Source of the DNA: Tubiluchus corallicola | Lineage: Eukaryota > Animalia > Priapulida | NCBI GenBank assembly: GCA_030141605.1 | Contig: JAQGDQ010000007.1 | Location: forward strand, 421,173 to 485,172 | Direction of reading: 5' to 3' | DNA: 64,000 bases | Part shown: positions 270-63,318 of the stretch, one piece after another | How the letters are laid out: each line of letters opens with the position of its first letter | How positions within the stretch are numbered: position 1 is the first letter of the stretch | The notes under the pieces: generated by a model | Database searches by the model: none | Seen by the model: the letters and a program-made list of their open reading frames with translations, nothing else | What the model was told of the DNA's origin: nothing | Position numbers and translations under genes: made by a program

Positions 270-410
270 CATTTTTGCCAGGAGACACATTTTGGGATGG
301 ATTATTTTCGGATGGTTGCTATTTCACCAATATGAGTTTTGCAAATTACACCATATTGGAGTTAACATCGATGTCACCCACAATGTGCATCCACTTTTGC
401 TATGATTTGG
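270..410 (+). CDS. Exon A1 (N-half of split WSC-like domain)
   Basis: caag|CA..TTG G|gtatga; 141 nt; AFLPGD..GCY..MCIHFCYDL. Confidence 0.85.
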
Positions 411-3400: not shown

Positions 3401-6400
3401 ATATGGGATATGTGCGTATAAGAAAATTTTCCATTAGGGGTTAGGAGGCAAAAAAACGAAAAATAGGGCCAAGAAGAAAAATGCGCCTAGGGTCAAGCAG
3501 TAATACCATGCAGTATGTCAAAGGAAAATCTCGGTGAGACGAACTGAATGGCATAGGTTACAGTCAGAATAGTTAGCCTGCGACCCCAAGCGGGGGAAAA
3601 ATAACGGCAGAGGAGAAAATGCTTTCCAGTGTCATCCAAAACTAGGTTGTACTATATCAATAGAAAGGTCTCAATGAGTATGAGCTACTATTGGTTGATC
3701 TCTGACTCTAGTAGGGGGTCAAAAACCGGAAAATGGAAGTTGGGAACAGAAATGCATGGAGTGTCCAGGAGTACCATTTAGTATATCAAATTAAAGGTGG
3801 AATGGTTGAGGCAAATCGAAAGTCATAGGTTACAACGAGAATGTTAACCTGCAACCACTCTAGGAGACAAAATAGAGGCTGACGAAGCAAATTTATTACA
3901 GTGCCAACCGAGCCAGCTTGTATTACACTAATTGAAAGGTGTTAATGAGACAAATTGAATTGTATCTGTAATGACAAGATTGGTTGACTGATGACCCATG
4001 GGTCATGGGTTGAAAAGTTATGAGTTGAGATTTCATTGTAAAGTGCAGTTTCTACGGAATCAAGCATAGTGAATTTGATCAAATCAAAGTCACAACTTTC
4101 AAACAAAAGGCTGGCATCTTTTCATGAGTCAATTCACTGTACTTTGCTAAAAGTAAATGAAATAATAATTATACATAGTTAATGTCATCAATAAAGTGAT
4201 AAGTCATGTTGATTGTAATTTATTAAGTTTACAATTTAGCATTTACTTATATTGATTATTTTATATTGTTAATTGATTATTATTTAACCGAATCATTATT
4301 GTAATCAAATATTAATTTTTGATAGCTTTACTTACTTTATTTTTTGGTACTTTTTTGGTATCACCTAAGGGAGCTGTGCAACCAGCCAATTGAAAGAAAC
4401 TGTCTTTGGCAAAGTTCATGACTAATTGACATTAAGTAATTAACTAAGTTAATCAATTTTGTTACTTCTCGTTAACTTTAATGCAAAATACAATTTCTGA
4501 TTGATTGGTGGCAGTGTAGAACAGTGAACATTTGTTAAGCATGAGGATGTACATCAACTCATTTTTATGTAGATGGCTATGGCAAAATTATGACATCAGC
4601 AAAATCAATACTTATCAGTACTTTCCAACGCTTAGATTTCTCGGGATATTTTTTAAGCAGATATTCATGAGATTAGATTATTTAAAAAGGATTCTATTTT
4701 GCTATTTGTGTGATGTTCATTCCTTATTTTTAACAAAGTACCTAGATTGCTTAGGTTGTAGTCAGTTTCTATGGTCTTTTTAATTTACTCCAACGACTTC
4801 CTTGTTGCAAACTTTGATTGCAGAGGACTACTTGGGATGATCAATGGAACTGAGTATGTTATATTTAAGAAGGAGATTAATTATGTTTGCTGTTTGTAAT
4901 ACAAGGTTTTATGGTCACATTGCTTATTTTTCAAACATTAGTTTATCAAAGCCAGTGGAGAGGCAAGTAAAGCAATGCAGATAAACAGCAATATCTTATT
5001 TACTGTTAGTAGTTTTCTGTTGCACATTATCTTTTGCGAGTGACACTATAACAAATCAGGTATTTTATATATTATGATTAATAATAAGTTTCGTTTTTTC
5101 CAGCATTTGTACCAGGAGAGGAAGTTCAAACTGGTTGCTTCAAATTCATTCAAGAATTCTCAAGTTCCAATGTATTAAATCGCATGACAATGACTCCTGC
5201 AATGTGCATTCGTTTTTGTTATGATTTGGGTATGATACAGACTTATTAATTACATTCAATAAATTTAATTTTAATACATTATGAATATGTTAAATAATAT
5301 TACGGTTACTTGTTTTGTAGCACAACCGGGTAGTTTGTCAAAAAATCTAGTCTTCATCATCATATTTTAATCATGCAGACAACTTTTTGCTTAACGTATA
5401 TATGTATGTGTTATTACTTACCATTTGGACCTATTAATGTATTCAAAAAATAAAACATTTTAGCTGGGATAAATTATCACTCTCATAAATGTAATTAGTC
5501 AACGTCATCTAACTTTTTGCTGCAAACTTGCATGTTTAATAGATTTCATCAATTTACATTTTACGTAGCCGTTCCTCCAGCTTCCTCTTTTGGTGCCACA
5601 TTTTACAATGTTTTGTGGTTAGCAAGAAAAAATTGATTTCTCATTTTGTAAACATTAGTTTTGGACATGTTCTAACTTTTAGTTGGTTAGTTTTGATTGG
5701 TAACTCATTTGACAGATACGTATTGTTTACCATCTGCATTTGTCCTATTTTGGATTACATATCATTAGTTTTGGATCCATACATACCAGCAAAAGAACTT
5801 CCAAAAACAGGAGATATCTTTGATCAGAGTGATGAAAACTCATCTGCAACTGGTACCGCAACACTAGTAGTCATACAAAGACACCCTCTACCAAATGGCA
5901 CAGCAACACATTTTATGTCAGCCTTTAGAGACTATCATTTACTCTTCACTAAACCATCCTTATCTTTTTTTAACCACACATACTAATCACATTCCACACC
6001 TGTTTTACATTCCTTATTTATGTATTTTATGCTAACCTCATTTGCCCAGTTCTATTCACTTTAATATTTTCTTTGCCTGCTCACACACATGCCTGTAGTT
6101 TTCAATTTAATGCTTTGCCAACATCAGCATAAATATTATCATAGCTGATTATAAATACAGATAGTTCTTAAACGTTTAGCTTGCTTAGTTAATTGAAAGA
6201 GGCAAGAGTTTGTAAACTGTTGAGAAATTTTTCTTTTCGTATTGGGTTCCCTCAATAATGTTTTCAAATGATTTTATATTAATCACATTTATCTTATTTT
6301 TCCAGTTTAATTTGTCGAAAATTACAACTATGTTCGATTAGCCTGGACAGTTTGAGTTAAGGCATCAAATTGATTTGAATTTAATTGTTCTACTGGGTCA

Positions 6401-9400
6401 CTAAGAAACGTGAATCTGCTGAGATTGTGTCAACCTGAGCTGTCCAGAGACTAAATGAATGACTTGGCATATGACTTGATAGTGAAGATTATAGTTTGTC
6501 CCCCAGTTACTAACTTCATTTCTTTTTTTCAGATCAAGATTTTGCTGTGTTAAACAATTACGATGAATGTACATGTGGAGATTGTTTAACACCTCAGACT
6601 ATGCATGACCAGAGATATTGCGCTGCCTGTGGTGGAGCATTTATCAGCCGTAATAATTATTTTGAGCTGTGCGGTTCAAAATCAACAGGCTATAGTAGCG
6701 TTCAAAGAGTTTATTCTGGTGAGCAAAACTGATTTCAAACTTTGATACAAAGGGCTTATATTAACAATTTACCTTACATTATATTGTGTTTATTTAATTT
6801 TTAACTCATGAACTTGTTAAATAAACTTGTGTTTATTTCCTTATAATCAGTGTATATTATAAACTTATACTTGTATGGCAGAATACACTTAATAGATATG
6901 TGATTAAACCATTACATAAGCTGTCTTGGAGACTACAATTTGCAAGTGTAGAATGAGGTGGTCTTTATCTTTATAAATTTTTTTCTTAAACTTTAATAAA
7001 AACTGTTTTACTTTTTGTCACTGCTTTGGGGAATTGCAGAATCACTTTTGATATTCAATGAAGTTTTTGCTGGCTAATGGTGTGCTGGATTTTTATTGAA
7101 ACAAGTGCAAAACTGAAGTTTAAAGCTCAATTGTGGCACTTGTTTGAATTACACGATCAGTTCATATTGCATTACTTGATACTCGTATCAGTTAAGATAT
7201 TTACATTGTGTTGGGTATGAATATTTAATATTTAGTTGTTCTGATACAAAATTTGTTTAAACTGTTGAGCTTCACAGTGGTCTTAGTCTTTATAACGATT
7301 GCTTACGTATAGTGTGGAAAACAGCTCGTCATGACTACAGAGGATGCTGGGATTTTGGAAATGGCACTTCGTTTGCAAAATCAATCCCTGGTGTGAATTC
7401 AGCTTTTGAGTGCGTCTTTTTGTGCCGAACATTTAGCAAAACAGCACAGTCTATTGGTAGTTTTGCATTGGTAGAGAAAAGTGGTGCAGACTATGTCTGC
7501 TATTGTGATGATTCAATAGGGACAGGAAGAGCTTCTGTAGCTGCTAATTGTGGTTTTACGCCGTCAGCTCATCTGTCATGCCAGAAATGTCCGGGTGGCA
7601 ACGACGGTTTCTGTGGCGGTGACAATGGTTATGCAGTATATGACACAGGAGGTAGTAATTCTGTTTTTAATCCTCGCAACATCATATTGTTTTTTGTTTT
7701 TTTTTGTAAATCATTCATTTATTCAATATTGCACATTTGTGAACAGTTCCCATGACTGATAAGCTCACCTTAGGTTGGTATACAATTGTTAACAACAACA
7801 TAAGTCCATTTGTAATGGTTGCTAATGTAAAGAAAAAATACTGAATATAAAGAGCAGCAATAAATAATGCATAATAAAAATTATTTAAAATGTTTTATTC
7901 CATCAATATATTGTTGTGTTATCTTAATGTAAATAAACATTTTGATCTTCAGTCGATAAAGGGCTGCTTGAATGCAAAATGCAAATTTTGACCTTGTATT
8001 TAATAACTGATGACAAAGAGAGAGAATTAGATAAATAAAATCTTTTTAAATTAGCTGAAAAAAACATAAATTATTTTGATCGTGAGTCAATGAGGGCTGA
8101 ACATATGCAGAGTAGAAATTTTGACCTGCATATTTAAATAATTGATGTCAAAAGAAGAGAATTAGATAAATAAAGGCGCCTTAAATTCTCTGCTGTCAAA
8201 AAATGACATTATTATTTATTTCCCATTACATTTTTGTATCTGTGACTATTCAGATGTTCATTTATTGGGAGAATCACACTCTTAAACCCCTGTGATGTAC
8301 AGAGTTGCTATGTGTATTTGATGGAATAAACAATATTTGTTATTGAGGTTTACCAAGCATTTCTCTATGTAATATACCCCTTTTTGTTTTAGCACCACAT
8401 GAGTATCAAGGATGTTTCGCATACTATGAGCCAGATATATACTTCCCTGTTAAAGAATCACTTGATCAAGGATCTACTTCTTTAGATGATGATTGTCTAA
8501 CAAAGTGCAGAAATAAGGGATACTTTTTTGGTAGTGTCTATTATTCGTCAGTTGCTGAGTATGCATGTGCTTGCGGAAACGGGTTTCCGTTCCCCAAATT
8601 TTCACTGAATTGTGCATACTGTATGAAGACAACCAGTGGAACATGTCCCGGAAAAAATGCAGTTTCTGTTTACTCTACTGAAAGTGAGTATAATTACTGA
8701 CTTGTAGTATTACAGGTCACAGTGGTGGTTGTGGTGTTATGGTTATGCAGGTTATAGTGGGGATGTTGATGGTGTGGTGGTTGTTTAGCAACAGGAACAA
8801 TAATATTAACAATATTAACAATGTAATTACTCTGTGCAAAGGTTAGCAGTTTAAATCAATAAATCTGCCTAATTCAATGACAAAAGTTTATTGAATTTGA
8901 CATTTAAAAGACCATAAGGGCATCTCTTGAACTCGTCGACCTCGCTTTACAGGAATGAGAATTTTCCGCGGATACGCGGAATTCCGAGTTTTTGGAAGAC
9001 CAATAGTGCCATTTTTGTAAATCGCGTAAATTTGTTGAGAAAATTTTTACGGACCCAGTACATACAACCAGCTGACCACTAGTTGGCAGGCCGTCACTTT
9101 GTTTACATCACATACATCAGTGTAACCACGTGTATATCTGTATGTATAAAAATATAGAATCAATTGTGTGGAGTTATTTGAGTCAATTGCAGACAGTTTT
9201 TATATACTTTTGCATCGGAGCGGCCAGTACTTAGAGGCATTTTTGAGACAATTAGGTATCATGTATCCTTGATAGTTGGGTATTTTAAATTATGCATGAA
9301 ACAAAGTAATTGATATTTTAAGTCCACTTAGAGGCTCTCTATGGTCACAAAATTGCAATTTGTTGCTGTCTCCAAGGGGGCTTCGCCCCGTTGAACCCCC

Positions 9401-27400: not shown

Positions 27401-29260
27401 GGCAGGTACCTTGCATGCAGTCTAACATTGTATTGGACATGTTGCATAGCTAGCATCGAAACACTATCAAATGAATGAGTTATTTGTAACAAGACTGTTG
27501 ATTTGACCCTGGTGATCTTATACAATACTGTTTGGTTTGATAAAAAGAATATTTAAAATCAGTAGTTTTTTAGTTGTATTCGCTAATTTTCTTATGATAA
27601 TGTTTTTTGGATGGGGTGTTTATCTACTGCTGCTTGTTTTATTTCTTTGTAGACTTTAAACTTCATAAGTTGCAAATTTTTGTCGCGGTTCGTAAAATGC
27701 TTTCTGTGCTTTTTATTATGTACAGTGTGGAGAGAAGCACGATATCAGTACAGAGGATGCTGGAGGTTCCCCCCTGGCATCACTTTCACAAAGTCGTTTA
27801 ATGGTGAAAATTCAGCGTATAGGTGCATGTCTCGTTGCTGGGCTGTCAGCAGGAAAGCAAAATTTATTGGCAGTTTTGCATTGATAGGAAGGAACAATAA
27901 TAATTATATTTGCCATTGTGATGACACCTTTGGAACAGGAAACGCTATAGGTGCTTCCAATGTGCCTTGTGAAAAATGCCCGGGTGACAGTGATGGTTTC
28001 TGTGGCACCACTGCTGATATCTATGCAGTCTATGACACTGGAGGTAATGTTTTGTTAAGTTATCTTCCCGATAGGTATTAGTGATGAACATTAAAATTTG
28101 AAGTATACAAAGAGGAAATCAGAAGGCTGCTCCTAATCTTTTTTCAACTGTGTTTTTGCACTTTTGAATAAATTTAATAGTGATAGGAGCTTTTAAGAGG
28201 GACTTAGCATGGTTACTGGTACATATTTCCAAGAATGGTGTATCCTGGTGGTCCTGGAATATTGAACTGTGATCATTAGAAAAATGTTATATGTTGGCAT
28301 GGTTATTAAAGCATTTATTGATTCTAGTAGACATAGTACACATATTTACAGCACATGCATGTTTTCTCTTTCAGCACCACATGAATATCAAGGATGTTTT
28401 CCGTATTATCGTTCAGTTACATTTTTCCCAGTTACGGAAAATCTCATGCAGACATCCAATACACTGGATGCCGACTGCGCTATAAAGTGCAGAGATCAAG
28501 GATATCTCTTTAGCAGCCTATTTTATATACAGACTCAATTTAGTTGTAAATGTGGAAATGGATTTCCTTTTCAAAAATTTTCTTCTGATTGCGGCAGTTG
28601 TACAAGGACAACAATTGGAATTTGTCCCGGAGAGAATGCGGTTACTGTTTATTCTACGGAAAGTGAGTATTTGACAATTACTGCAATAAGTAGTTAAATG
28701 CTGATGACGATAACAATGACAATGATAACTACAATGTCGATGGAACATCAATGACATTAACAAATAACAACTTTAAAACTGCATGTGGTGCCAGTCTATG
28801 GTACTCGTACAGGTTATTCTAACAGGTTTTTGCAAAATTTTTGTCTTTTCTTTGATACTCTATGTGCAGAGCCGGCTCTAGGTAATTTGATGCCCTAGGC
28901 AAAATTATTTTTAGCACCCTCTCCTTAATGGTCAAACCCTTTCCTCACGGTCCTTACAGCACTCTCCTAATATTGAATTTTTCTTGTATACATTGTAATA
29001 ATATACAACGACAGGTGCTTATTACGGGCTTATACATGTATTATAGTGTGCTAATTACTGTAGTTTTTACCTACAGCTGGTGCTGATTACCTTTGTAATT
29101 AAGTTATAACTTCTTGAATTTGAATTTGGATTGATATATGACTTGTCTCTTCCCATTTTTACCTTTCCTTTCCTTTATTCCATCCCCAAGACTTCGATTC
29201 TTAATGGTTTATCTTACACAGTTAGATAAATGCTATTGTGAGATTTTTTTATTAACAGAA

Positions 29261-29304
<44 letters not shown>

Positions 29305-44209: not shown

Positions 44210-44242
<33 letters not shown>

Positions 44243-53200: not shown

Positions 53201-56200
53201 ATTCAGCCTAGGGTTGCAGATATAACATCTAAAGTTTCTAAACTATTGTACCATGTGTCTTACTTTATGAAGATAGATCTTCCTTTTAACGGATTAACTG
53301 TTCAACCTATCCAAGATTTTCAGTGTATTGACCTATTTTATTACATAACTAGGTAAACTTTGTAGTCCTTGAGTAATTGATAAGTTATTGTGTTTTATTG
53401 TTGTCTGCCAATATTTTTTCCTGTTGGATATTATGAAAATCTGTCAGAAATATTAATAGTAAAATTTGCTGGATTTGAGTATTTATTTCACCAATTATTC
53501 TCAGAACATACGTTCTTTTGACTACCATATTATTTAACTTGGTATCACATTTGTTTTCTTGTTAATGTTTTTACCTAATTTTCTTACTATATATAGTGTG
53601 GAAACGAACTGCAGATGATCCTGACTACAGAGGCTGTTGGAAGTTTTGGTTTGGAACTGCTTTCTATAAGTCATTCAGTGGTGTTAGTTCTGCTTATGAA
53701 TGCTTGTCACTGTGCCGAAATCTTGGAAAAGGAACACAAGTTTCCATATTTTTTGCACTGATTGGGAAAAAGAACAACAACTACATGTGCCAGTGTGACC
53801 GCACATTGGGCACAGGAAGAGCCGTTGTTGCTACGGATTTATCCTGTCCAAGATGTCCACTAGGAGATGAAGGATTTTGTGGAAATCAAGATGATGTTTA
53901 TGCCGTTTATGATCTTGGAGGTAACATCAAAATATTTATATCAAGGTTGCTTTGATGTTTCACATGGAACCTTTCTTTTTTCTGTTGCAGCTATTAGTCT
54001 TTAAGAAATATTTTTTCAATTAAAGTACAAGCAAGCAGACAAATAAAAACAGCCTATTTTACGTCCTGGCAGTATTGAGGCAAAAAGCTTGTTTTTATCG
54101 TTATCGTATCGATATTATTCTAATCTAGTTACCAGCTCGAATTTGGCACATATCGTTGCTTATCGCATACCTTTATAAAATCATTTCACTTTGCTTTTCT
54201 ATTTATCTACAGTAATGATAAAAAGTTTTTATCTACAGGATAAAAAGAATTATTTAAAATTATACGTTTGGCAGACGCCGAAATATTTTCTTGTACCTTT
54301 GCCTGGCATTAATGGCTATCTTCATTCTGAATTATACTAACAAAGTGTAGAGACCCCTTTATACTTTGATACTGATGTGTGGATGCCAAATACACTGTAC
54401 CGTGTTTTAATGTCACTACCGGTCATGTGCAGCTCGCATAGATAAATATTTTTATTGTAATAATATGTTTGTCTGCCACAGCTTACTTATTTATGAATAA
54501 TTATGACAAACAAACCTGTATTTCAAAACTGGCAGCCATTTAAGTATACAGCTCTGAACACCCTGAAGCACTTAATAGTTTTAATTGTTAATGATATTGA
54601 TGATACGATAAATTATTTCGATTGCTAAAATGGTACTGAATTTAGCAATTTGATATGCTACTACAGTGCTAAAAGAAAATAAGCCTAAATTGCTTAGACT
54701 TGGCTGCTAAGTATATGCAGGGTGTAAGGAAATGACATATTATGTTTACAACTAAGTTAAGATTTCAAAGTAAATCCTGAAATGTGTTACAACATGTGCA
54801 ACTTTCCATGATGCATTTTGTTTCCCTTTTCTTCAATAAGCCTTTTCACAGATTTACTATGTGTACTCAGAGTTGCTGTTGGTCAAAGCAACGTATCTTA
54901 ACTGCAACTGTCACGTGACCTTATGCACATAACTGCAGGTAGGTGAAACAGGTAAAATGCATTTTTATTACATACTACACATGTATAGTTATAAACTAAC
55001 ACGTTATACTTTTGCCCGAAAACATTTAGCGGTAGTTCACGTAAAATAACAACAGCATGCATGGACGGTTGAGGAGCGTTGTTAAGTATAAACAAACGTG
55101 TTGTTTGGTTCAGATGAAGTTGTTAGGTTCCCTTAACCTTTGGCCATTGGTTGAGGAGCGTTGTTAAGTATAAACAAACGTGTTGTTTGGTTCAGATGAA
55201 GTTGTTAGGTTCCCTTAACCTTTGGCCATTGGCGGCTCAAGTATAGGTATTGTGGAACTGCGGCACTCCCTATTTTCATTCAATATTATCAACAATATTC
55301 AGTCTCATAAGTTTTTTTCCTTAATTCTTTCTTTATACTTGTACAGAACCAGAGCACGCGAGGGTAGTACTGTTTGCTTCACAGCCTAGCACAGTTTGCT
55401 TTAACAATGCGCGATTTGGCTATTGTGCACATGCGGCCATGCGTAGCAAAAGCACTGTCGCTCACACAGTTTGTTGTCAGTTTCGCGTGCTTACCGTAAA
55501 TGGATCAAGCTTGAACTGCGACAATTTAGGCTATTAGTAAGCAAAAAATATATGTTTTGTTTAGAATTTTATCAAGTTTCGATGAAACATTCATGTTTGT
55601 TTGTTTAAAATTACAATTACAAATTACAACATTGCATTTACATATGTTTGCCTCGTTTTACGCTGTATTAAACAGTGGCTAAAATTTTCTGATGCAGCAC
55701 CCCCCTAATTTTAGCAAAAAGCTGCCCCTGCCTTTGACCTTTTCACGATCGTCATCAATCGCTAGAACTGTGAAAAGGCTTATTTAAAGGAGTAATGCAA
55801 TCCTTGAATAAGATTGTAGTTCCTGCTAATACAAATTATATGTGCAAGAGTTGGCAAAATATACCATCTTCTATTTCTCTATTTCCACAAACTTCATCAG
55901 CATTTGTGTAATTTTAGCCCCACTGATTGTTCCTGAGACAATAATTGAATAGCTGAGATATGGTAGGTAATATGCACTGAAACAATTTTTGTGGCTACTC
56001 AACTTGTTTGTTCACATCAATTAACTCATAACATCTGAAGTTAAATCAAAAGGGCGACGCAATTCCTTTATGTATTTAGAACAAAATTAATTTGAAGTTG
56101 CACAAAATAATTTTATGACGATATTATGATACTATTACACATAAAGTTGTTTTGTCGTTTAATCAAAATATTATACGAAAACTTTAAGCGTACACTCGGC

Positions 56201-59200
56201 CTTTGTGTACAGATGTGGTGACTGTCATACAATGATGCATTCAATTTCCTGGTAGATTAAAATGGAAATATTTGAAGACCAAATTGTAAAAAATTTGTGG
56301 TCTTGTAAATGTGGCACTTTTGTTTATGATAGTAAATTCTTTTAATTTTTTTAGATGCACCTAACCATCAAGGATGCTTTGCATACTACAAGCCAGACAT
56401 ACACTTTCCAGTTACTGTACCTCTCAGTGGAGTAAATGATTTAGATGATATTTGTTTGATAAACTGTACAGATAAAGGCTATTACTATGGCAGTGTACAT
56501 TGTTCACAGAACGGAGAATTCTCGTGTAAATGTGGGAATGGATTTCCTTTTAGGAAATTTTCATTGAATTGTGCAAGATGTGTAAAGACAACAACTGGAA
56601 CATGTCCAGGAAAAAATGCAGTATCTGTTTACTCTACTGAAAGTAAGCATTTTTGGATATACACTGTTAAGCAATTATTCCTATTCTAATCAAGAAAGAA
56701 ATGTGATTGATTACTACATCCAAATATCTGTTCCATAAAATTATTTTGTTTTCCAAGACAGATCATATTCTCAATGTATTTTGCAGCACTCTTACTCTTA
56801 GTCTTTCTTACTCTGAGTATTTTTTAATTTACATTATCTTTATATACATTATTTTTATTCGTACTTTATTTTGTACACCACTTTGGGTTAGTTAGTTAAG
56901 TTAAACATAAAAAACAACAACACTATTTACATACACATACAAACTATATATTTGTTATCAGTATTTGTATGCAAATACTAAACAGTTGCTAAGTAACTTA
57001 TGATTATTTCATTTGTTCATTACTTTAGGTGTTCGTCATATGTACCTTCGATCCCATATAAACATTCCTTGATTGTAATGACATAGACAATTAAATTAGC
57101 GATACAACGCTCCATAAAAACGTCTAAGTTCAGTTTCTTAAACTAAAAAATATGTAAACACTCAAATGTCTTACATTAAATCTGATAATGCTTCTAGCAT
57201 CACTATACACAGTTTTTCATATTGCGATTAATAGTAAGTCTTATTCATGTTTTTTCATTATGGGTAAGAAAACACTATGATTGGCTGCCGTTAACCTTGT
57301 ACTTATAGGTCACATAAATAATGCAAAACATGCATATCATGCAATAGTGAAAAAAAAGTGAATTTCAATTTACAAATTACAAAATTACTGAATGTCAGGT
57401 GTTTTTAGCAGAAATATTCATAAATCTGATGAGATGATAGCAGTAAACAATTCAGTGTTTAAAAAAACAAAGCCAGTGTGACAGTTGAACATAGTACTTA
57501 AATTAATGTATACAAACTAACTGTTAAAGCATCTGATAGTTTTTTGATAAACTTTCCTTCTTATAATTTAAGTTTGTGCATGTTTTTTGGCAATTTGCAC
57601 TAGTTTAACAGCGTGACAAATTATTCTTCAGCTCTAAGTGTCGTTTTTGTTTGCTTGCATAAAAAGTTAAGAAATATCTTTTTTCCAGCAGTGCTGCCAT
57701 TCATAATTCTGTAAGAAAATACATTTTTAATTAGCATATTGAAGTTATAAAATTAATGTGAATACACATGTTTGGTTTATCAGGTTTGTTTTTAAAGCAT
57801 TGATTATTAAATGTCATGTTTAGATAACTGGCACCTTTGCTTTAAGCAGTAAGCTTTTCTGTGATTAGTTTTTTCTATGTACATTTTTATCTTCTAGATT
57901 TTGAGTTTACTTCGAAAATCTTGGGATGCTGGGAAGATAGAGATCCTGATGCAGAACAGCCTCATAATGGAGAAAGAGACATGTCATACCTGATTACATT
58001 TCAGAATTTGACACCTGAAAAGTGCAAGCTGCATTGTTTGGAACTTGATTATGCATTTGCAGGCTTACAGAATGGAACTGAGTGTTATTGTAGTAATTCG
58101 TATGGGAGATACCAACCTTCCAGAAACCCTTGTAACATGAAATGTGGCAGTACTAGTGAACGTTGTAATTTGCATGATAAATCTTGTTTAACTTGTGGTG
58201 GTGAGTGGGCATTAGAGGTTTATCCTTCAAGTGGTGAGTATTTGTGTAAATTTGTAATTTTGAAATACACCCATATCTCGGTTTGCTGGACCTCGCTTTT
58301 ATGGATATCGGAAGACTCGGGCAAAATCTGGACCCCTAAAATGTCTCACATACTACGGACACAGTCTGTTGTTTTGCGAGCTGACTGCTAGTTGGTGGGC
58401 TATCACTTTGTTTACATTATTACATCAGTGTAAACAAGCAGTGTGTAATGAAATGTGTGTTGCTCGTATTGTTTCCAAGACTACATAAAAATAGTAAAAG
58501 CTGATTGGTCACACACAAAAGTATCTTATTTAAGCATATGCAGAAATATTATACAGTCAATTACACAGAGTTATTTGTGTCAATTGCCAACAGTCTTTAT
58601 ATACTTTTGCATGGGAGCTATCTGTACTAGATGTTTTTGAGACAATCAGGCGATTTATTCTACATTACTGTGAGTCTAATACGCAGCGCTAACTGTGTAT
58701 TAGCTTTGTATCGGTAAATACGGACAATTGGAACTTCATATTTTGCAAACTGAGATATGAGTGTATGTGTTAGCTCTGTTGGTATATGTAAATTATCTGC
58801 ATTTACTAATTTGTTTATAAGTATAGTTTTAGAGACTAGCACTGCTGCCACTTCACTATTCTTGACAACTTATACATCTAATGAAGCATTTTAATTTTTG
58901 TGTATTAATTCTCATTGAAAATTTAATTTTACATTGGACTCACAGAAGGAGGAACAGAAGGTGAAAACCTGAAAATACATTATTCATCACATTTCAGTCA
59001 GGTTCCAAGTTCCGAGTTTAGTTAAATTAAAATTGATTATTGAATTAAATTAGTAAAACCAAGTAAATAAAACACTACCTGTAACATTTGTGCATTATTT
59101 ATTATACTAATTTCAATTTAATCCAAATGTTACACATTGTGCTTTTGTAGCCTTTTGCTTACAAATGTAAACTAGTTAATAATTGATTTGTACCATTGTT

Positions 59201-62200
59201 GCATTTGTGTTGTTGTTGTTTGTTGTTGTTGTTGTTGTTGTTTGCTGTTGCTGTTGTTTATCAAAAGCAGCATCATTGCTGTTGCTGTTGTTGATGAAGA
59301 TGTTGACTGTGATTATCTTGATGATAACGATAACAGTGACAATGATGTTTTCCTGTTAGAAGAAAATTTGGAAGGAAGTTTAGCCAGAAATTTTTGTATT
59401 CAAGGATTTTTTTGTATTCCTCAAATATTTTTAGGGTTTTGCTACTCTGATAATTAATATTATAAGTACTTTTTTGTTGCTATTGTCTCAAGGCTTGATT
59501 AACTCATTTTTTACACTTTTCAGCTTTAGTATCAGCAGCTGTTAATGAAACTGATTAACTTCATTAAAATCACTAACATTGCGTGTATTGTGTTAGAATT
59601 TTTTGCATTGTCTTTCCTTTTTAACCTGTTGAAAAATAGCCATGGGCTAATGTTGTCCTTAGTAAAATTTTAACAATAGATAAAATTTTTACTACTTGCT
59701 ATTACTACAAGTTTTTATTTTGGTTATTCTGCCTTGCCTAACCAGTGTTTAATTTTTTCTATTGTTCTAGACTTTGTGCCTGGAGAAGAACTGGGAACTG
59801 GTTGCTTTAGACAAATTCAAACAGATGCTTTTGATGAATCTACCATCTTAAGAAGACAAAGCATGTCGGCAAGAATGTGTGTTGGTCACTGCTATGAACT
59901 GGGTATATGTTGTTTAATTTACTTGCTTTACAATTATTCTGGGTGAAATCTACAGTCAAAGTTGTGGTAAATTAGAAAAATTAGTATAATTTCCAAAAAA
60001 AACATAACTTTTGGACACTAAGCATTTATTAATTTCTTTTCTCAAGTCATGATACTACCCTGGTCTCTAATGTGAATTATGCAAGACGTCGTATGTCTAA
60101 TTTAATTAAAAAATGGTATTTTTTCTGTGCTTACCAAAATTATATTGTATTTTACATTGTATTTTAAAAAAGCTTCACACTCATTAAATAAGTCACTTAT
60201 TCCATGCTATGCATCTAATACACTTTTCGTCAGAATATTTGTATGCTCTGTGCAACATTTTCACTGTGGGAATGTGCAATCGGTTGTATTTGTTTAACAT
60301 TTTTAGGTGCAGTAGAGCATGTTGGCTTTGTGCAGGAGAAGTTTCAGTTTAAGTAAAACAAGACCCAATTTGCAAAGTGTTAAAAGAGTTATTGCGTAGA
60401 CCAAAAGTTACATTACAGATTTAGAATTTATAGTTTGCAATGTTTCATGACAGTCACCAATTTCCATTAACTGACCACCTTCAGAGCTTGATGCTGTAAC
60501 CATTGAGTCCCTGTTCTACTTGTAATTTCTTCTTTTATTTTGGAATCCTAATTAGTACAGATATTTGTCAGAAAACATTGCAGTTGTGCAGTAGCAAATA
60601 TTTTGTTTGGATAGTTGATCCTTATTCTCACTCTCATGTGTCTCTGTCTATTTGTCTTTCTGTTTTTATTTTTATTTTTACGCAGAACATGACTTTGCTG
60701 TGTTGACTAATTATGATGAATGTAAGTGCACAAGCAACACAGTTTTCCAAGCTGAAGGTGACACTAAACACTGTGCACCGTGCGGTGGTTCCTGGAATGG
60801 GAGAAACAATCAGTACGGTCTCTGTGGAAGGAAAGGTTACGTCGGCGTGTACAGAGTTTATTCTGGTAGGTTAAGATAGAAATTAAGAAAATATAATTTA
60901 TTGTTTTGCTTCATTCTACTAAATTGCTAAATCAAAGTATTCTAAAATAAACTATAAATCACGGGTTGAGTGTCAGATCCAGCTGTATTTGGATCTTCAA
61001 GTTTTTCACGTTTAAGAGGTTTAAACAATAGTCAGAGACTTTGACTGCTGTTCATCACAGCATATGAACTAACTTGCTTTGCTGCACTCGATTTATGATG
61101 TATGTGACGAAGCTTGCTATAATTCCTGTACAGAGTTATTTAAAAAGATAAAAAATAGCTTATTAAGCAAATTTAACTGCTTTGTTGTACGGAAATTTAT
61201 CTTATTATTGTAACTTGTATAGATTTACTGCATTTGGATTCTTGGAATCTACCGCGTATAGAACGTCCAGTTTATTCAACATGCACTTTCCAAAGTGCTA
61301 ATAAATGGATAAGTTCATCTTCTAGTAGGCATCGTTAATATTTGTATAATCCATACACTTAGCTGATTCTTGGAAACTGTTACAAACTGATCAGATCCAG
61401 TTGAGCCCCACACAAATGCCAATAAGTAGCTCCTCATGATGCTGTTTATCATTGTATTTTTGGCTTTAAAAGCTGTGCTGTAATTCATACGTAATGTCAA
61501 TGTAATCCATTTCAAAAAGCTGTTTTTCAGCTCAGAAATGCTGCAACTATGTAAAACTGGTTCAACTGTGACAAGCTGAAAATGCCTGATTTTGAATATC
61601 TACAACTTTTGAATCACTTTAAGCATTTCACTTATCTGTTGAACTCCACTGAGCTTACGTGTCTTTTCTTTGCAGTATGGAAAGAGGCTCGTCATGAGTA
61701 TAGAGGATGCTGGAGATTCCCATCTACTCTCACTTTTGCGACATCTTTTATTAATATAAATTCCGCCTACGAATGTCTATATAAATGCAATGAACTCAAA
61801 ACAACTCAATCTGAACATTATTTCGTACTTCTTGGCCAACAAAATGGTGACAGCGTCTGTCATTGTGACGACAACTTAGGAACAGGAAATGCTATTGCAC
61901 CTGCTGATTTTTCTTGCAGTAAATGCCCTAATGAAGAAAGTGGTTACTGTGGCATGGATAAAGATGTGTATGCAGTGTATGACACAGGAGGTAACATGCA
62001 TTGACGGAATTATTCAGTATTATATGTAAACTATGTATTTAGTTGTGTATAGGCAATGTTGAGTAGTAAGAATGAGATTTAATATGCTACTAAAATATGC
62101 TATAGGTTACTTACACTTTTTTATTTTGTGTCAAATGTTGGTGAACCCAAGAGTGGATGATATTGCTCACTCATCGGGAAGGTCCGTGTTTCCTTCCGAT

Positions 62201-63090
62201 TCTTGTCAAAATCTATTTTTTGTTTTTGGTTTTTTCATTGCAGAAGCTCGTTCTTATCATGGCTGTTTTGCAAATTATAAAACGGAGTCGTACTATCCTT
62301 TTACTGTGTCACTTGCAAACTTTACCTCTGACTTGGACACTGAATGTCTCACGCTATGTCAAAATAAAGGTTATTACTTTAGCAGTCTTCATTATTTGGA
62401 GACAGACAACTACACTTGTAAGTGTGGCAATGGTTTTCCATTCAAAAGGTTCTCATTAAACTGTGCAAGCTGTACAGAGACAACTCATGGATTTTGTCCG
62501 AAGAAAAATGCAGTTTCTGTTTATGCTACAGAAAGTAAGTTTTGGTCCAGTGTTACTGGGTGTTTATTAAATTTATTTTGAATAAATATTGCACTGGAGT
62601 GTTTACATGTTGATATGCAGTAAATAATTTTGATAGTTTGTGATTTGGCTTATTTTCACTTAACGTAATAATTGTTTTGTTTATTTCTGTTTGGGAAAGC
62701 AGTCTCTAGTAAAATTCATCATAATTTTTTGTGTTTTTATTGTAGATTTTCCAGTTGACTCTGACATGTTAGGCTGCTGGGAAAACAAAGATTCAAAACA
62801 ACCAGACCTGAAAGATAGTCACTTTGAAGTCAAAGACATGACACCAGACAAGTGTGAAACCCACTGTTCTGAAGAGCTGTATGGTTATGCTGGCGTACAG
62901 AATGGTACGCACTGTTACTGTGGCAATATATACGGACATCAGTTGCCTGCAAAAAACCCTTGCAACTATGTCTGTGGTTATGAGAAATATGGCAATTGGA
63001 TCTCGCATGAAACAGAAAACTGCAGTGTTTATGAACAAGACTGTATAAGTTGTGGTGGTAGATGGGCTCTGCAACTACACCCGACCAATG
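270..63090 (+). CDS. Partial giant multi-exon gene (50 exons, ~4201 aa in window) encoding ~40 tandem WSC-like domains; 5' and 3' ends outside window
   Basis: 10 x (A,B,C,D,E) exon cassette. All exons are AG..GT bounded, phase 1-1, with lengths divisible by 3 and no stops. E exons match the WSC pattern LGCW..(L/M)TPEKC..HC..Y.YAGL..G..C.CG..C..C..CGG.WAL.VY. Many N-x-S/T sequons suggest an extracellular protein. Confidence 0.9.
1114..1302 (+). CDS. Exon B1 (C-half of split WSC-like domain)
   Basis: cag|GG..GGC G|gtaagt; 189 nt; ENFAILPSYDECIC..CAPCSGAFSGRNNNFGVCG..VY. Confidence 0.88.
1530..1850 (+). CDS. Exon C1 (WSC-like domain)
   Basis: tag|TG TGG..GGA G|gtagta; 321 nt; VWK..YRGCW..YAVYDTG. 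Confidence 0.9.
1956..2276 (+). CDS. Exon D1 (WSC-like domain)
   Basis: tag|CA CCA..CAA A|gtaagt; 321 nt; APHEYQGCF..CFCGNGFP..VAVY. Confidence 0.9.
2545..2883 (+). CDS. Exon E1 (WSC domain, 10 Cys)
   Basis: tag|AT..AAT G|gtagga; 339 nt; LGCW..MSPEKC..CFCGN..CGGSWALAVY. Confidence 0.92.
3500..3990. repeat. Diverged ~270-bp tandem duplication in a GC-richer intronic island (probable TE remnant)
   Basis: ataggttacagtcagaatagttagcctgcgacc (~3553) vs ataggttacaacgagaatgttaacctgcaacc (~3825); gaaaggtctcaatgag vs gaaaggtgttaatgag. Confidence 0.55.
5104..5229 (+). CDS. Exon A2
   Basis: cag|CA TTT GTA CCA GGA..TTG G|gtatga; 126 nt. Confidence 0.88.
6533..6718 (+). CDS. Exon B2
   Basis: cag|AT CAA GAT TTT..TCT G|gtgagc; 186 nt. 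Confidence 0.9.
7313..7651 (+). CDS. Exon C2
   Basis: tag|TG TGG AAA..GGA G|gtagta; 339 nt; insertion with an extra Cys. Confidence 0.9.
7960..8173. repeat. Diverged direct repeat, period ~133 bp
   Basis: agggctg..aaattttgacct..gagaattagataaataaa occurs twice. Confidence 0.6.
8393..8683 (+). CDS. Exon D2 (absent from ORF track)
   Basis: tag|CA CCA CAT..GAA A|gtgagt; 291 nt; APHEYQGCF..CPGKNAVSVYSTE. Confidence 0.9.
8925..9260 (+). mobile_element. Dispersed repeat, copy 1 (MITE-like); copy 2 at ~58265-58650
   Basis: Shared blocks gacctcgcttt, ctagttgg..tcactttgtttacat..tacatcagtgtaa, tttatatacttttgcat..tttttgagacaat. Confidence 0.6.
9835..10182 (+). CDS. Exon E2
   Basis: cag|AT TAT CCA..AAT G|gtgagc; 348 nt. 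Confidence 0.92.
11027..11158 (+). CDS. Exon A3
   Basis: taag|CC TTT TTG CCA GGA..TCT G|gtataa; 132 nt. Confidence 0.85.
12857..13045 (+). CDS. Exon B3
   Basis: cag|AC CAG GAT..TCT G|gtgagt; 189 nt. Confidence 0.9.
13275..13870 (-). mobile_element. Degenerate RTE-clade LINE fragment with internal deletion
   Basis: Minus-strand YEKAFDHV, VYWNQTTVIR..QGCVLS, YASETWT..KVFEIW, KQLSFFGH; (GAA)n-type 3' tail near 13275-13290. Confidence 0.75.
14393..14707 (+). CDS. Exon C3
   Basis: cag|TG TGG AAT..GGA G|gtaatg; 315 nt. Confidence 0.9.
15617..15907 (+). CDS. Exon D3
   Basis: tag|CA CCA CAT..GAA A|gtgagt; 291 nt. Confidence 0.9.
17772..18095 (+). CDS. Exon E3
   Basis: tag|AT TAT GCA..AAC A|gtaagt; 324 nt. 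Confidence 0.92.
18919..19050 (+). CDS. Exon A4
   Basis: taag|TA TTC CAG CCT GGG..TTT G|gtaggc; 132 nt. Confidence 0.85.
19235..19417 (+). CDS. Exon B4
   Basis: cag|CA CAT GAC..TCT G|gtatgc; 183 nt. Confidence 0.9.
20734..21042 (+). CDS. Exon C4
   Basis: tag|TG TGG AAG..GGA G|gtaatg; 309 nt. Confidence 0.9.
21453..21743 (+). CDS. Exon D4
   Basis: tag|CA CCA CTT..TCG A|gtgagt; 291 nt. Confidence 0.9.
22153..22461 (+). CDS. Exon E4
   Basis: tag|AT TAT GGC..GAT G|gtgagt; 309 nt. Confidence 0.92.
22567..22796. mobile_element. MITE-like ~230-bp fold-back
   Basis: Imperfect inverted arms of at least 80 bp: gtgtactttatt..gtgtaacacgactg..cactttgcttgg / ccaggcaaagtg..cagtcgtgttaca..aataaagtacac. 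Confidence 0.7.
23109..24439. repeat. 46-bp minisatellite, ~29-30 copies
   Basis: Unit taacttaacaaataattgatgcttgataccaagttcactctgctag repeated head-to-tail; two 29-bp truncated units near 23615-23672. Confidence 0.97.
25137..25268 (+). CDS. Exon A5
   Basis: taag|CA TTT ATG TTC GGA..TTG G|gtatgt; 132 nt. Confidence 0.85.
25320..25680 (+). mobile_element. Highly degenerate LINE reverse-transcriptase fragment
   Basis: Frameshifted LSNRRVQV, (I)GVPQG and WGRNWIATFNAKK motifs. Confidence 0.55.
26080..26259 (+). CDS. Exon B5
   Basis: cag|GG CAC AAT..TCA G|gtaggt; 180 nt. Confidence 0.9.
27726..28043 (+). CDS. Exon C5
   Basis: cag|TG TGG AGA..GGA G|gtaatg; 318 nt. Confidence 0.9.
28375..28662 (+). 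CDS. Exon D5
   Basis: cag|CA CCA CAT..GAA A|gtgagt; 288 nt. Confidence 0.9.
28867..29625. mobile_element. Non-autonomous hAT-type element
   Basis: Termini cagagccggctctag / gtagagctggccttg; 8-bp TSD tctatgtg / tctaagtg (7/8 match); gccctaggcaaa / tttgcctag subterminal motifs. Confidence 0.7.
29263..29301. repeat. (TA)n microsatellite
   Basis: ~19 TA units. Confidence 0.95.
29810..31894 (-). mobile_element. PIF/Harbinger-like DNA transposon relic
   Basis: Imperfect TIRs (catgcgattttcagttgtgcaattaaa vs reverse complement catgcacttttcaattgaacaattaaa) flanked by tta/taa. Minus-strand relic MNPNSFDELL..AVTLSYL at ~31480-31600 resembles the Harbinger transposase N-terminus. Confidence 0.55.
32168..32458 (-). 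pseudogene. hAT transposase C-terminal dimerisation-domain fragment (ZMYM1-like)
   Basis: VSVALCERSFSKLKQIKNHMRSTVGQPKLSDLS..FEDVI. Confidence 0.75.
33156..33491 (+). CDS. Exon E5
   Basis: tag|AT TAC GCT..AAT G|gtaaga; 336 nt. Confidence 0.92.
35068..35193 (+). CDS. Exon A6
   Basis: aaag|CT CTT AGT CCT GGA..TTA G|gtatct; 126 nt. Confidence 0.83.
35240..37651. mobile_element. TTAA-flanked Kolobok-like non-autonomous element, long copy (~2.4 kb)
   Basis: ttaa|aggataagaaaa .. tttccttgtcct|ttaa; both ends homologous to the adjacent short copy. Confidence 0.6.
37648..38117. mobile_element. TTAA-flanked Kolobok-like element, short copy (~470 bp)
   Basis: ttaa|aggacaagaaaa .. ttttcttgtcct|ttaa with ~65-bp imperfect TIRs. 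Confidence 0.65.
38758..38943 (+). CDS. Exon B6
   Basis: tag|GT AGA GAT TTT..CAA G|gtaagt; 186 nt. Confidence 0.9.
39165..39479 (+). CDS. Exon C6
   Basis: tag|AG TGG ACT..GGA G|gtagta; 315 nt. Confidence 0.9.
39587..39877 (+). CDS. Exon D6
   Basis: tag|CA CCA CAT..GAA A|gtaaat; 291 nt. Confidence 0.9.
40390..40704 (+). CDS. Exon E6
   Basis: tag|AT TAT CCA..TAC A|gtgaga; 315 nt. Confidence 0.92.
42012..42137 (+). CDS. Exon A7
   Basis: caag|TT TCT GTT CCG GGA..CTC G|gtaagc; 126 nt. Confidence 0.85.
42659..42838 (+). CDS. Exon B7
   Basis: taag|GT TAT GAT TTC..TCT G|gtagga; 180 nt. Confidence 0.86.
43100..44145 (+). mobile_element. 5'-truncated CR1/L2-like LINE fragment
   Basis: DDTVLYKVI..LQAD..NKLALNASK..YKHLGV then LYYSLVWPILEYTASVWSP; decays into 3' region ending at an A-rich/(AAT)n tract; right boundary uncertain. 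Confidence 0.7.
44150..44240. repeat. Compound (GAT)n/(AAT)n/(CAT)n/(ATT)n microsatellite
   Basis: Directly visible. Confidence 0.9.
44388..44714 (+). CDS. Exon C7
   Basis: tag|TT TGG AAA..GGA G|gtaagt; 327 nt. Confidence 0.9.
45501..45791 (+). CDS. Exon D7
   Basis: cag|CA CCA CAT..GAA A|gtaagt; 291 nt. Confidence 0.9.
47051..47398 (+). CDS. Exon E7
   Basis: tag|AT TAT GCA..TAC G|gtgaga; 348 nt; near-identical to E2. Confidence 0.92.
47516..47641 (+). CDS. Exon A8
   Basis: cag|TA TTT GTA CCA GGA..TTA G|gtatga; 126 nt. Confidence 0.88.
48707..48898 (+). CDS. Exon B8
   Basis: cag|AT CAA GGT..TCT G|gtaagt; 192 nt. Confidence 0.9.
49666..49977 (+). CDS. Exon C8
   Basis: tag|TA TGG AAA..GGA G|gtaata; 312 nt. 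Confidence 0.9.
50083..50373 (+). CDS. Exon D8
   Basis: tag|CA CCA CAC..GAC A|gtaagt; 291 nt. Confidence 0.9.
50970..51293 (+). CDS. Exon E8
   Basis: tag|AT TAT CCA..AAC A|gtaagt; 324 nt; near-identical to E3. Confidence 0.92.
51668..51799 (+). CDS. Exon A9
   Basis: taag|TA TTC ACT CCG GGC..CTT G|gtgagc; 132 nt. Confidence 0.85.
52173..52352 (+). CDS. Exon B9
   Basis: cag|AT CAT GAC..TCT G|gtatgt; 180 nt. Confidence 0.9.
53597..53920 (+). CDS. Exon C9
   Basis: tag|TG TGG AAA..GGA G|gtaaca; 324 nt. Confidence 0.9.
55067..55232. repeat. Perfect 82-bp tandem duplication
   Basis: ggttgaggagcgttgttaag..cctttggccatt twice, starting at 55067 and 55149. Confidence 0.95.
56355..56642 (+). CDS. 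Exon D9
   Basis: tag|AT GCA CCT AAC CAT CAA GGA TGC..GAA A|gtaagc; 288 nt. Confidence 0.9.
57898..58233 (+). CDS. Exon E9
   Basis: tag|AT TTT GAG..AGT G|gtgagt; 336 nt. Confidence 0.92.
58265..58650 (+). mobile_element. Dispersed repeat, copy 2 (homologous to ~8925-9260)
   Basis: Same conserved blocks as copy 1. Confidence 0.6.
59205..59250. repeat. (GTT)n microsatellite
   Basis: Directly visible. Confidence 0.9.
59771..59902 (+). CDS. Exon A10
   Basis: tag|AC TTT GTG CCT GGA..CTG G|gtatat; 132 nt. Confidence 0.88.
60686..60865 (+). CDS. Exon B10
   Basis: cag|AA CAT GAC..TCT G|gtaggt; 180 nt. Confidence 0.9.
61676..61990 (+). CDS. Exon C10
   Basis: cag|TA TGG AAA..GGA G|gtaaca; 315 nt. 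Confidence 0.9.
62244..62534 (+). CDS. Exon D10
   Basis: cag|AA GCT CGT..GAA A|gtaagt; 291 nt; NAGNAG acceptor. Confidence 0.9.
62746..63090 (+). CDS. Exon E10
   Basis: tag|AT TTT CCA..AAT G|gtaaga; 345 nt. Confidence 0.92.
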
Positions 63091-63318
63091 GTAAGAATAG
63101 CTCACTGATTTTTACAGTGTTTCACATTTGTGAAAAGCAGCTTGCAGGAAATATTTTGCCCAGTTTGACGTAAATGTATTTAACTATTGTATTTCGAATT
63201 TGCTATAACTAGTAGAAATGATGGTGCCTTGCTCCAAGATCTCAAGGGGATTCACATTGATGGGTTTATACCAGAGAATTAATACTTATAAGCAGTAGTA
63301 TTAATAATTATACTTACA

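What the first reader, a model, noticed from the sequence alone, without database searches (positions are those of the whole stretch)
270..63090. Giant poly-WSC protein gene built from a 5-exon / 4-domain cassette repeated at least 10 times
Seen: 50 exons in strict ABCDE order splice into one 4,201-codon frame with ~40 WSC-like domains, no other domain type, and no start or stop, so the full protein is larger still. Units differ substantially in sequence, yet none has a stop or frameshift, which implies purifying selection. Established: WSC is a disulfide-rich extracellular domain linked to glycan binding, and well-known animal carriers (Kremen, polycystin-1, WSCD1/2, Drosophila Oxt) have only 1-2 copies. 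Inference: a very long multivalent glycan-binding protein (pattern recognition, mucus/adhesive or matrix scaffold). I do not recognise this architecture.
Basis: partly seen in the sequence, partly recalled or inferred. Interest (0 to 1): 0.88.

Follow-up and report, generated by a model that had tools for sequence, protein, structure and literature searches.

The report
Giant gene with forty WSC domains
This stretch of an invertebrate genome holds 50 intact exons that are predicted to splice into at least 40 WSC-type domains in a four-domain unit repeated ten times, likely a very long extracellular protein that would grip polysaccharides; an unstudied flatworm gene model with 32 WSC domains shows the design is rare but not unique.

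Summary
Observation confirmed. Fifty GT-AG exons in strict ABCDE order, all multiples of 3 with phase-1 introns, join into 4,201 codons with no stop. dN/dS is 0.23-0.45 for all 45 unit pairs. Type E is canonical WSC (4 of 4 tested pass Pfam's cut-off). AB, C and D are divergent WSC; the C model matches Kremen1 and yeast Wsc1 (Z 10.3, 8.3). No other domain exon was found in the introns, and both gene ends lie outside the window.

The novelty claim is weakened. An uncharacterised Macrostomum lignano model (PAA60592.1, 4,054 aa, partial) has 32 WSC domains with its own four-domain period plus VWA and F5/8 domains; other records carry 13-18. None looks orthologous. Proteins over 2,000 aa were not searched systematically.

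New here: three atypical WSC subtypes, exon-limited gene conversion (E2/E7, E3/E8) and a five-unit signal in the array.

Best reading: a secreted or surface multivalent polysaccharide-binding scaffold. Ligand, splicing and ends are untested. The scan had not reported this on other DNA. Other notes call the genome a probable priapulid (unchecked). A new variant of a known but unstudied kind.

The parts
270..2883 (+). Unit 1: exons A 270-410, B 1114-1302, C 1530-1850, D 1956-2276, E 2545-2883 (A+B = one domain; C, D, E one each)
   Evidence: Pfam WSC E1 43.3 bits, C1 17.9, D1 17.5
5104..10182 (+). Unit 2: A 5104-5229, B 6533-6718, C 7313-7651, D 8393-8683, E 9835-10182
   Evidence: model of C2 matches Kremen1 WSC Z 10.3
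11027..18095 (+). Unit 3: A 11027-11158, B 12857-13045, C 14393-14707, D 15617-15907, E 17772-18095
   Evidence: E3 54.2 bits Pfam WSC
18919..22461 (+). Unit 4: A 18919-19050, B 19235-19417, C 20734-21042, D 21453-21743, E 22153-22461
25137..33491 (+). Unit 5: A 25137-25268, B 26080-26259, C 27726-28043, D 28375-28662, E 33156-33491
35068..40704 (+). Unit 6: A 35068-35193, B 38758-38943, C 39165-39479, D 39587-39877, E 40390-40704
   Evidence: ESM Atlas top hits for C6 are WSC clusters at 0.93
42012..47398 (+). Unit 7: A 42012-42137, B 42659-42838, C 44388-44714, D 45501-45791, E 47051-47398
   Evidence: E7 44.6 bits
47516..51293 (+). Unit 8: A 47516-47641, B 48707-48898, C 49666-49977, D 50083-50373, E 50970-51293; only 117 nt separate E7 from A8
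   Evidence: ESM Atlas top hits for D8 are WSC clusters at 0.94
51668..58233 (+). Unit 9: A 51668-51799, B 52173-52352, C 53597-53920, D 56355-56642, E 57898-58233
59771..63090 (+). Unit 10: A 59771-59902, B 60686-60865, C 61676-61990, D 62244-62534, E 62746-63090; ends at an open phase-1 donor, so the gene likely continues
   Evidence: E10 53.5 bits
9810..10187 (+). Likely gene-conversion tract shared with 47026-47403 (E2/E7, 93% DNA identity, confined to the exon and a few intron bases)
   Evidence: both versions present in run X1
17762..18139 (+). Likely gene-conversion tract shared with 50960-51337 (E3/E8, 91% DNA identity)

Best explanation
The window is the middle of one giant animal gene whose 50 exons are predicted to splice into a chain of at least 40 WSC-type domains (four types, ten units), likely a secreted or cell-surface scaffold that would bind long polysaccharide chains through many weak sites at once. 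Shown: exon structure, open frame, purifying selection, WSC membership of type E, a WSC-fold prediction for type C, and no hydrophobic membrane stretch in the 4,200 residues. Inferred: the four-domain unit (one canonical E plus three remodelled domains) is the working module, forming a composite binding surface as proposed for the three-WSC fungal lectin SiWsc3, and repeating it gives avidity and reach, roughly 100-150 nm if extended (my estimate at 3-4 nm per domain). Such a protein would cross-link glucan- or chitin-type polymers in cuticle, mucus or egg coat, or trap microbes. The array likely grew by copying a class 1-1 five-exon block with its introns, followed by unequal exchange and exon-limited conversion.
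For: Open 4,201-codon frame with canonical splice sites; dN/dS 0.23-0.45. E passes Pfam WSC in 4 of 4 tested and its profile hits Kremen1 at E 9e-10. 37 of 40 domains score above the best (13.2 bits) of 996 reported shuffles on a profile of database WSC domains. The C model aligns to Kremen1, Wsc1 and the Fusarium glyoxal oxidase entry at Z 10.3, 8.3 and 8.0, next hit 5.4. 8.2% Cys, 32 N-glycosylation sequons and a highest 19-residue hydropathy of 1.03 fit an extracellular protein. Aromatic content is 8-18% per domain. Type order is fixed over ten units: 53% identity at lag 4 against 21-23% at other lags. WSC arrays are fused to polysaccharide enzymes in records found here (6 WSC + GH16 in Homalodisca; glyoxal oxidase, GH71 and peroxidase fusions in fungi). 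SiWsc3 binds long beta-1,3-glucan with three WSC domains together (PMC9024836 Discussion, second-hand).
Against: No binding evidence exists for any domain here. PMC9024836 finds no glycan pocket in single WSC domains, and Kremen1's WSC contacts the protein Dkk1. Three of four types depart from the fungal consensus: Cys6-x2-Cys7 instead of x3, and terminal CGG in 0 of 10 D, 0 of 10 AB and 2 of 10 C, so transfer of function from fungal WSC is weak. Signal peptide, anchor or catalytic end are outside the window; the Macrostomum analogue also carries VWA and F5/8 domains, so 'WSC only' holds for this window alone. All exons are phase 1-1, so any subset is in frame. The D model was poor (pLDDT 61) and gave no clear fold match.
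Confidence: 0.55

Rival explanations
1. One giant protein, but the WSC array acts as a protein-binding or self-associating rod (adhesion, matrix or reproductive secretion, or the stalk of a receptor), not as a lectin.
For: Kremen1 WSC binds Dkk1 and Wsc1's aromatic clusters may drive self-clustering (PMC9024836). Macrostomum prostate and seminal-fluid genes carry WSC domains or WSCD2 homology (passages of PMC4490696, and PMC6953679). The 32-WSC Macrostomum model has VWA domains. Three of four types lack the consensus loop motif.
Against: No RGD, furin site, mucin-like stretch or membrane segment in 4,200 residues. A passive spacer would not obviously need four distinct types kept in fixed order with type-specific invariant aromatics.
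Confidence: 0.27
2. The array is a splicing repertoire: mRNAs include only some units or exons, giving shorter proteins of varied specificity or length.
For: All 50 exons are phase 1-1, so skipping keeps the frame. Unit sequences differ by 32-54%. Unchecked notes report several mutually exclusive exon arrays elsewhere in this genome.
Against: Copies are interleaved (ABCDE ABCDE), not grouped as in mutually exclusive arrays. There are no decayed copies. Splice-site scores are similar for all types (mean acceptor 7.3-10.2, donor 6.5-9.5 bits, scored on a matrix built from these same sites). E7-A8 and E8-A9 introns are an ordinary 117 and 374 nt.
Confidence: 0.13
3. Ten separate four-domain genes in tandem, or a dead array, or an assembly artefact.
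For: No RNA support could be obtained here; near-identical E exons could in principle reflect mis-assembly.
Against: Every E ends at a GT donor in open frame. 117 nt between E7 and A8 leaves no room for a terminal exon, promoter and signal exon, and no hidden exon scored as coding. 0 stops and dN/dS about 0.34. Run X1 holds separate contigs for the E2 and E8 versions (E2's runs into its own upstream intron), and the letters they show on E7 and E3 are the paralogue's letters; X1 may be the source sample.
Confidence: 0.05

Closest known systems
Macrostomum lignano hypothetical protein PAA60592.1 (P0205; 4,054 aa, partial) and relatives PAA60591.1 (15 WSC), A0A1I8HTR8 and PAA81169.1 (13 WSC each)
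   Same: Animal poly-WSC proteins. P0205 has 32 Pfam WSC stretches and a four-domain period (80% identity at lag 4 against 46-58% at lags 1-3). The two 13-WSC proteins are nearly WSC-only and start with signal-like hydrophobic ends (read by eye).
   Different: Its domains are all canonical, basic and often identical, whereas the four types here are 21-23% identical to each other and the chain is acidic (pI 5.6). P0205 carries VWA and F5/8 domains. The window's profiles score it at most AB 11, C 6, D 13, E 43 bits against 137-179 for own domains, and the arrays group apart in a quick tree, so likely independent expansions. The IDs appear in no paper searched; its identical repeats could be assembly-inflated.
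Serendipita indica SiWsc3 lectin (three WSC domains; as described in PMC9024836 Discussion)
   Same: Built only of repeated WSC domains; the domains together appear to form the carbohydrate site; binds long beta-1,3-glucan.
   Different: Fungal, 39 kDa, three domains; here at least 40 domains of four types in an animal, ligand untested.
Kremen1 (PDB 5FWS) and yeast Wsc1 (PDB 7PZ2) WSC domains
   Same: Fold and eight-cysteine frame.
   Different: Single domains in membrane receptors. Here E has ten cysteines, and AB, C and D have a Cys-x2-Cys loop and mostly lack CGG.
Homalodisca vitripennis XP_046665345.1 (6 WSC + GH16; a cluster member is named beta-1,3-glucan-binding protein-like)
   Same: Animal tandem WSC array tied to glucan recognition by annotation.
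   Different: Six canonical domains and a GH16 domain; no GH16 in this window.
Glycerotoxin of Glycera tridactyla (PMC5336659, passages)
   Same: Secreted invertebrate protein with WSC domains.
   Different: Only two WSC domains beside EGF, CCP and a large unknown region; nothing but WSC is seen here, and no sequence comparison was made.

Membership tests
WSC domain (PF01822), type E | Passes Pfam curated cut-off (27.8 bits) | tested here: met
   4 of 4 E exons tested, 43.3-54.2 bits; 6 not scanned
WSC domain (PF01822), types AB, C, D | Passes Pfam curated cut-off | tested here: not met
   C 3 of 3 and D 3 of 3 hit WSC only at 11.9-18.8 bits; A and B halves alone 0 of 5; joined AB not run against Pfam
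WSC domain, all types | Eight cysteines with the Wsc1 spacing (21,3,15,1,14,3,7; from PMC9024836 residue numbers) | tested here: met
   All 40 have at least 8 Cys with Cx3C and CxC in place; AB, C, D have x2 instead of x3 in the last loop; E has an extra pair
WSC domain, all types | Terminal CGG motif | tested here: inconclusive
   Met in E 10 of 10; C 2 of 10; AB 0 of 10 (CG kept in all); D 0 of 10 (CP)
WSC domain, type C | PAN/Apple core wrapped by the long L5 loop (WSC fold) | tested here: met
   AlphaFold2 model pLDDT 70.7; Z 10.3 Kremen1 (rmsd 2.8, 95 aligned), 8.3 Wsc1; Foldseek top six rows are Kremen1/Wsc1 but E only 0.002-0.02
WSC domain, type D | WSC fold | tested here: inconclusive
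   Model pLDDT 61, best Z 4.7; sequence evidence points to WSC: ESM Atlas 0.94, 194 features, all 10 above shuffles
WSC domain, type AB | WSC fold | not tested
   No model made for the two-exon domain; profile evidence only: 15.6-35.9 bits, all 10 above shuffles, hhalign to E 95% over 32 columns
WSC-only lectins (SiWsc3 type) | Direct binding of long-chain beta-1,3-glucan | not testable with these tools
   Needs a binding assay
WSC-only lectins (SiWsc3 type) | Signal peptide and no other domain | not testable with these tools
   Both ends lie outside the window; no genome is held
Orthologue of Macrostomum poly-WSC proteins | Type-specific similarity and shared grouping of domains | tested here: not met
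   Profile scores at background WSC level; arrays separate in a quick 99-column tree, monophyly test unfinished
Polycystin-1 / Kremen / WSCD1-2 / glycerotoxin | One or two WSC domains among other domains (PKD, REJ, kringle, CUB, sulfotransferase, EGF; recalled except Kremen and glycerotoxin) | tested here: not met
   40 consecutive WSC-type domains with no other domain in 4,200 residues

The most novel reading that the evidence does not exclude
The longest WSC array yet seen in any protein (at least 40 domains, over 465 kDa, both ends still open), and the first in which three remodelled WSC subtypes and one canonical domain form a fixed four-part polysaccharide-binding module: a giant lectin-like matrix or immune-trap protein of a little-studied phylum, reached independently of the flatworm four-domain array.
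Probability: 0.3. Interest if true: 0.65.

Novelty: new variant of a known kind. Interest (0 to 1): 0.45.

Why it matters
What animal WSC domains bind is an open question, and the literature suggests that glycan binding needs several domains together. A natural four-domain unit, conserved ten times under purifying selection, is a ready construct to test that. Two animal lineages apparently reached a four-WSC repeat independently, which hints that four is a functional unit. Three subtypes here fall below Pfam's cut-off, so annotation pipelines would undercount such arrays. Against this, giant repeat proteins built from class 1-1 exon cassettes are common in animals, and no function is shown.

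Tried and rejected
No whole genome is held, so the ends could not be read. Sequencing-run search: no RNA holder listed. X1 behaves as DNA (contigs run through exon-intron borders, no splice joints listed) and X2 laid only 7 contigs, the listed ones on repeats, so splicing is untested. C-profile search among 197-2,000 aa proteins: 0 of 7,994 candidates scored (weak evidence). D-profile search of 1.84 billion representatives: 33 hits, all generic multi-WSC proteins, best single domain 36 bits against 145-169 for own domains. Metagenome scan: 1 locus from 73 pattern matches, a 20-residue match with no other WSC signal in L001, judged chance. D fold search inconclusive. The retrotransposon fragment gave 34 relatives, none with an organism name, so no taxon. 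Rfam: 0 matches. The test that the 40 domains form one clade did not finish. A clean five-unit block duplication was rejected: C and D show no lag-5 signal and unit 7 falls in a different A/B class from unit 2. The simple (XY)2 origin of the unit is not favoured: AB resembles E and C resembles D (shallow profiles). Paper searches with no relevant description: 0 papers; 0; 0, WSC + Priapulus; 13 papers, none on an animal poly-WSC protein. Earlier scan notes: none near this place, none with WSC in this genome, no look-alike sequence; one search listed 8 of 23 WSC notes, none a poly-WSC array. Supplements of the Macrostomum seminal-fluid papers were not read and might link its poly-WSC genes to a tissue.

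Full report
1. Observation. A six-frame motif scan and tblastn with the first unit give ten copies each of five exon types in strict A-B-C-D-E order on the + strand. Every exon has an AG acceptor and a GT donor at the homologous position, a length divisible by three and phase-1 introns on both sides. The 4,200 whole residues are 8.2% Cys, about 465 kDa, pI 5.6, with 32 N-glycosylation sequons and no membrane-like stretch. Introns are 105-4,493 nt. No extra or decayed A-E exon exists on either strand, and no other coding-like phase-1 exon was found in the 49 introns. The window begins in an intron and ends in one that holds a retrotransposon fragment, so both ends of the gene are missing, and no genome is held.

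2. Selection and reality. Units are 46-68% identical. Nei-Gojobori dN/dS is 0.23-0.45 in 45 of 45 pairs (dS is near saturation, so values are rough). Run X1, which behaves as DNA, has contigs that match several units with 0-2 differences and run through exon-intron borders. It supports the assembly, though it may be the source sample. No RNA holder was listed, so splicing is predicted, not seen.

3. What the domains are. A+B, C, D and E each make one domain. E is canonical WSC: 4 of 4 tested pass Pfam's cut-off, its profile finds Kremen1 and Wsc1 in the PDB, all ten end in CGG, and it has a fifth cysteine pair. C and D hit WSC only below the cut-off (6 of 6 tested, 11.9-18.8 bits). On a profile built from 250 of 337 database WSC stretches (selected with the E profile, so it leans to E), E scores 60-76, AB 16-36, D 19-36 and C 10-30 bits; the best of 996 reported shuffles is 13.2, so 37 of 40 exceed it. 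The AlphaFold2 model of C2 (pLDDT 70.7) aligns best to Kremen1 (Z 10.3), Wsc1 (8.3) and the Fusarium glyoxal oxidase entry (8.0), well above the apple domains that follow. The D model was poor and inconclusive, but ESM Atlas puts both C6 and D8 with WSC clusters (0.93-0.94). AB, C and D share a departure from the family: Cys-x2-Cys in the last loop and mostly no CGG. So '40 WSC-type domains' is fair, with 10 canonical and 30 remodelled.

4. How the array grew. Types are 21-23% identical to each other and about 53% to their own kind, so the four-domain unit is old and was copied whole with its introns. This is the usual class 1-1 route for extracellular modules (recalled). AB resembles E and C resembles D (hhalign 95% each; C+D also group at SH-aLRT 84), which suggests the natural unit may be E-AB-C-D. 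Units five apart are more alike than chance (57% against 48-52%; p = 0.0008 in 20,000 permutations, one of 56 tests). The signal comes from E, A and B (p 0.001, 0.005, 0.008), not C or D (0.16, 0.78). E2/E7 and E3/E8 are 90-91% identical with pS 0.07-0.08, while their neighbours are not, and the DNA match stops within about 45 nt of the exon. That is best read as recent exon-limited gene conversion. X1 holds both versions: the differences it shows on E7 and E3 are, at 7 of 8 and 6 of 6 listed places, the letters of E2 and E8 (the eighth, 47151, matches the X1 variant at the homologous place in E2).

5. Relatives. No protein with C- or D-type domains was found, so the gene looks lineage-restricted within what these tools hold. 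The E search (203-2,000 aa only) returned 160 proteins, 120 listed, led by Macrostomum lignano poly-WSC proteins. Among the 164 proteins then held, the highest counts were 18 (an unnamed Logan protein, P0050), 15, 13 and 13 (Macrostomum), 9-11 in tremellomycete fungi and 9 in an oyster. A cluster look-up then surfaced Macrostomum PAA60592.1, 4,054 aa and partial, with 32 Pfam WSC stretches, two VWA and three F5/8 domains and its own four-domain period. It is uncharacterised, its repeats are partly identical and could be inflated by assembly, and it is not an evident orthologue. It was found only as a cluster member; proteins above 2,000 aa were never searched directly, so I cannot claim the window holds the record.

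6. Mechanism. PMC9024836 (passages and Discussion read) reports that single WSC domains lack a glycan pocket, that direct glycan binding was not shown for yeast sensors, that the three-WSC lectin SiWsc3 binds long beta-1,3-glucan with the domains acting together (second-hand there), and that Kremen1's WSC contacts Dkk1. The records found here often fuse WSC arrays to polysaccharide enzymes. From this I infer a multivalent polysaccharide-binding scaffold whose working module is the four-domain unit (0.55). Rivals are a protein-binding or adhesive rod (0.27), a splicing repertoire (0.13) and separate genes or artefact (0.05). For the rod, passages of PMC4490696 and PMC6953679 place WSC proteins in flatworm prostate secretion, and passages of PMC12911473 report a predicted WSC protein in spittlebug foam. 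Passages of PMC5336659 and PMC5460417 were read and gave no match of architecture. All other papers were seen as search listings only.

7. Organism. The DNA is 34% GC with CpG at 0.47 of expectation, as in a methylated invertebrate genome. Unchecked notes on other pieces of this genome call it a probable priapulid; I could not test that. No paper in the library holds both WSC and Priapulus.

8. Verdict. The gene is real, intact and unusual in size and in its three remodelled WSC subtypes. I found no paper on any animal poly-WSC protein, but database models show the kind exists. New variant of a known, unstudied kind; interest 0.45.

Noticed in passing
window 63292-64000 (+): Open 236-codon C-terminal fragment of a non-LTR retrotransposon in the intron after E10; 34 relatives, four with a reverse-transcriptase Pfam mark, up to 54% identical over the full length.
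   Followed up: partly
window 23109-24439: 46-bp minisatellite, 28.7 copies, 91% matches, with a run of 29-bp truncated units inside (23615-23704).
   Followed up: no
window 22551-22812, 31144-31247, 37590-37709: Self-complementary (palindromic) intron elements, MITE-like.
   Followed up: no
window about 8560-9600, 15860-16900, 55050-56350: Very high-copy interspersed repeats: summed depth in the thousands in run X1 against about 10 for unique DNA.
   Followed up: no
window 55067-55232: Perfect 82-bp tandem duplication (100% identity), a recent event or an assembly slip.
   Followed up: no
window 13581-13901 (-), 43086-43382 (+), 32171-32467 (-): Decayed transposon reading frames: two look like reverse-transcriptase pieces and one like a hAT transposase C-terminus (motifs recalled, not tested).
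   Followed up: no
P0205 / P0048 (Macrostomum lignano PAA60592.1, PAA60591.1; consecutive accessions, both on a 166,145-nt contig): Two partial models with 32 and 15 WSC domains; they may be one gene or a tandem pair, and the four-domain repeat has identical copies.
   Followed up: partly
P0050 (unnamed Logan record, 1,971 aa): Signal-like start followed by 18 WSC domains, strongly basic, open at the C-terminal end; another unstudied poly-WSC protein.
   Followed up: partly
P0002 (Homalodisca vitripennis XP_046665345.1): Six WSC domains fused to a GH16 beta-glucan-binding-protein domain in a leafhopper, with a relative in Cuerna arida.
   Followed up: no
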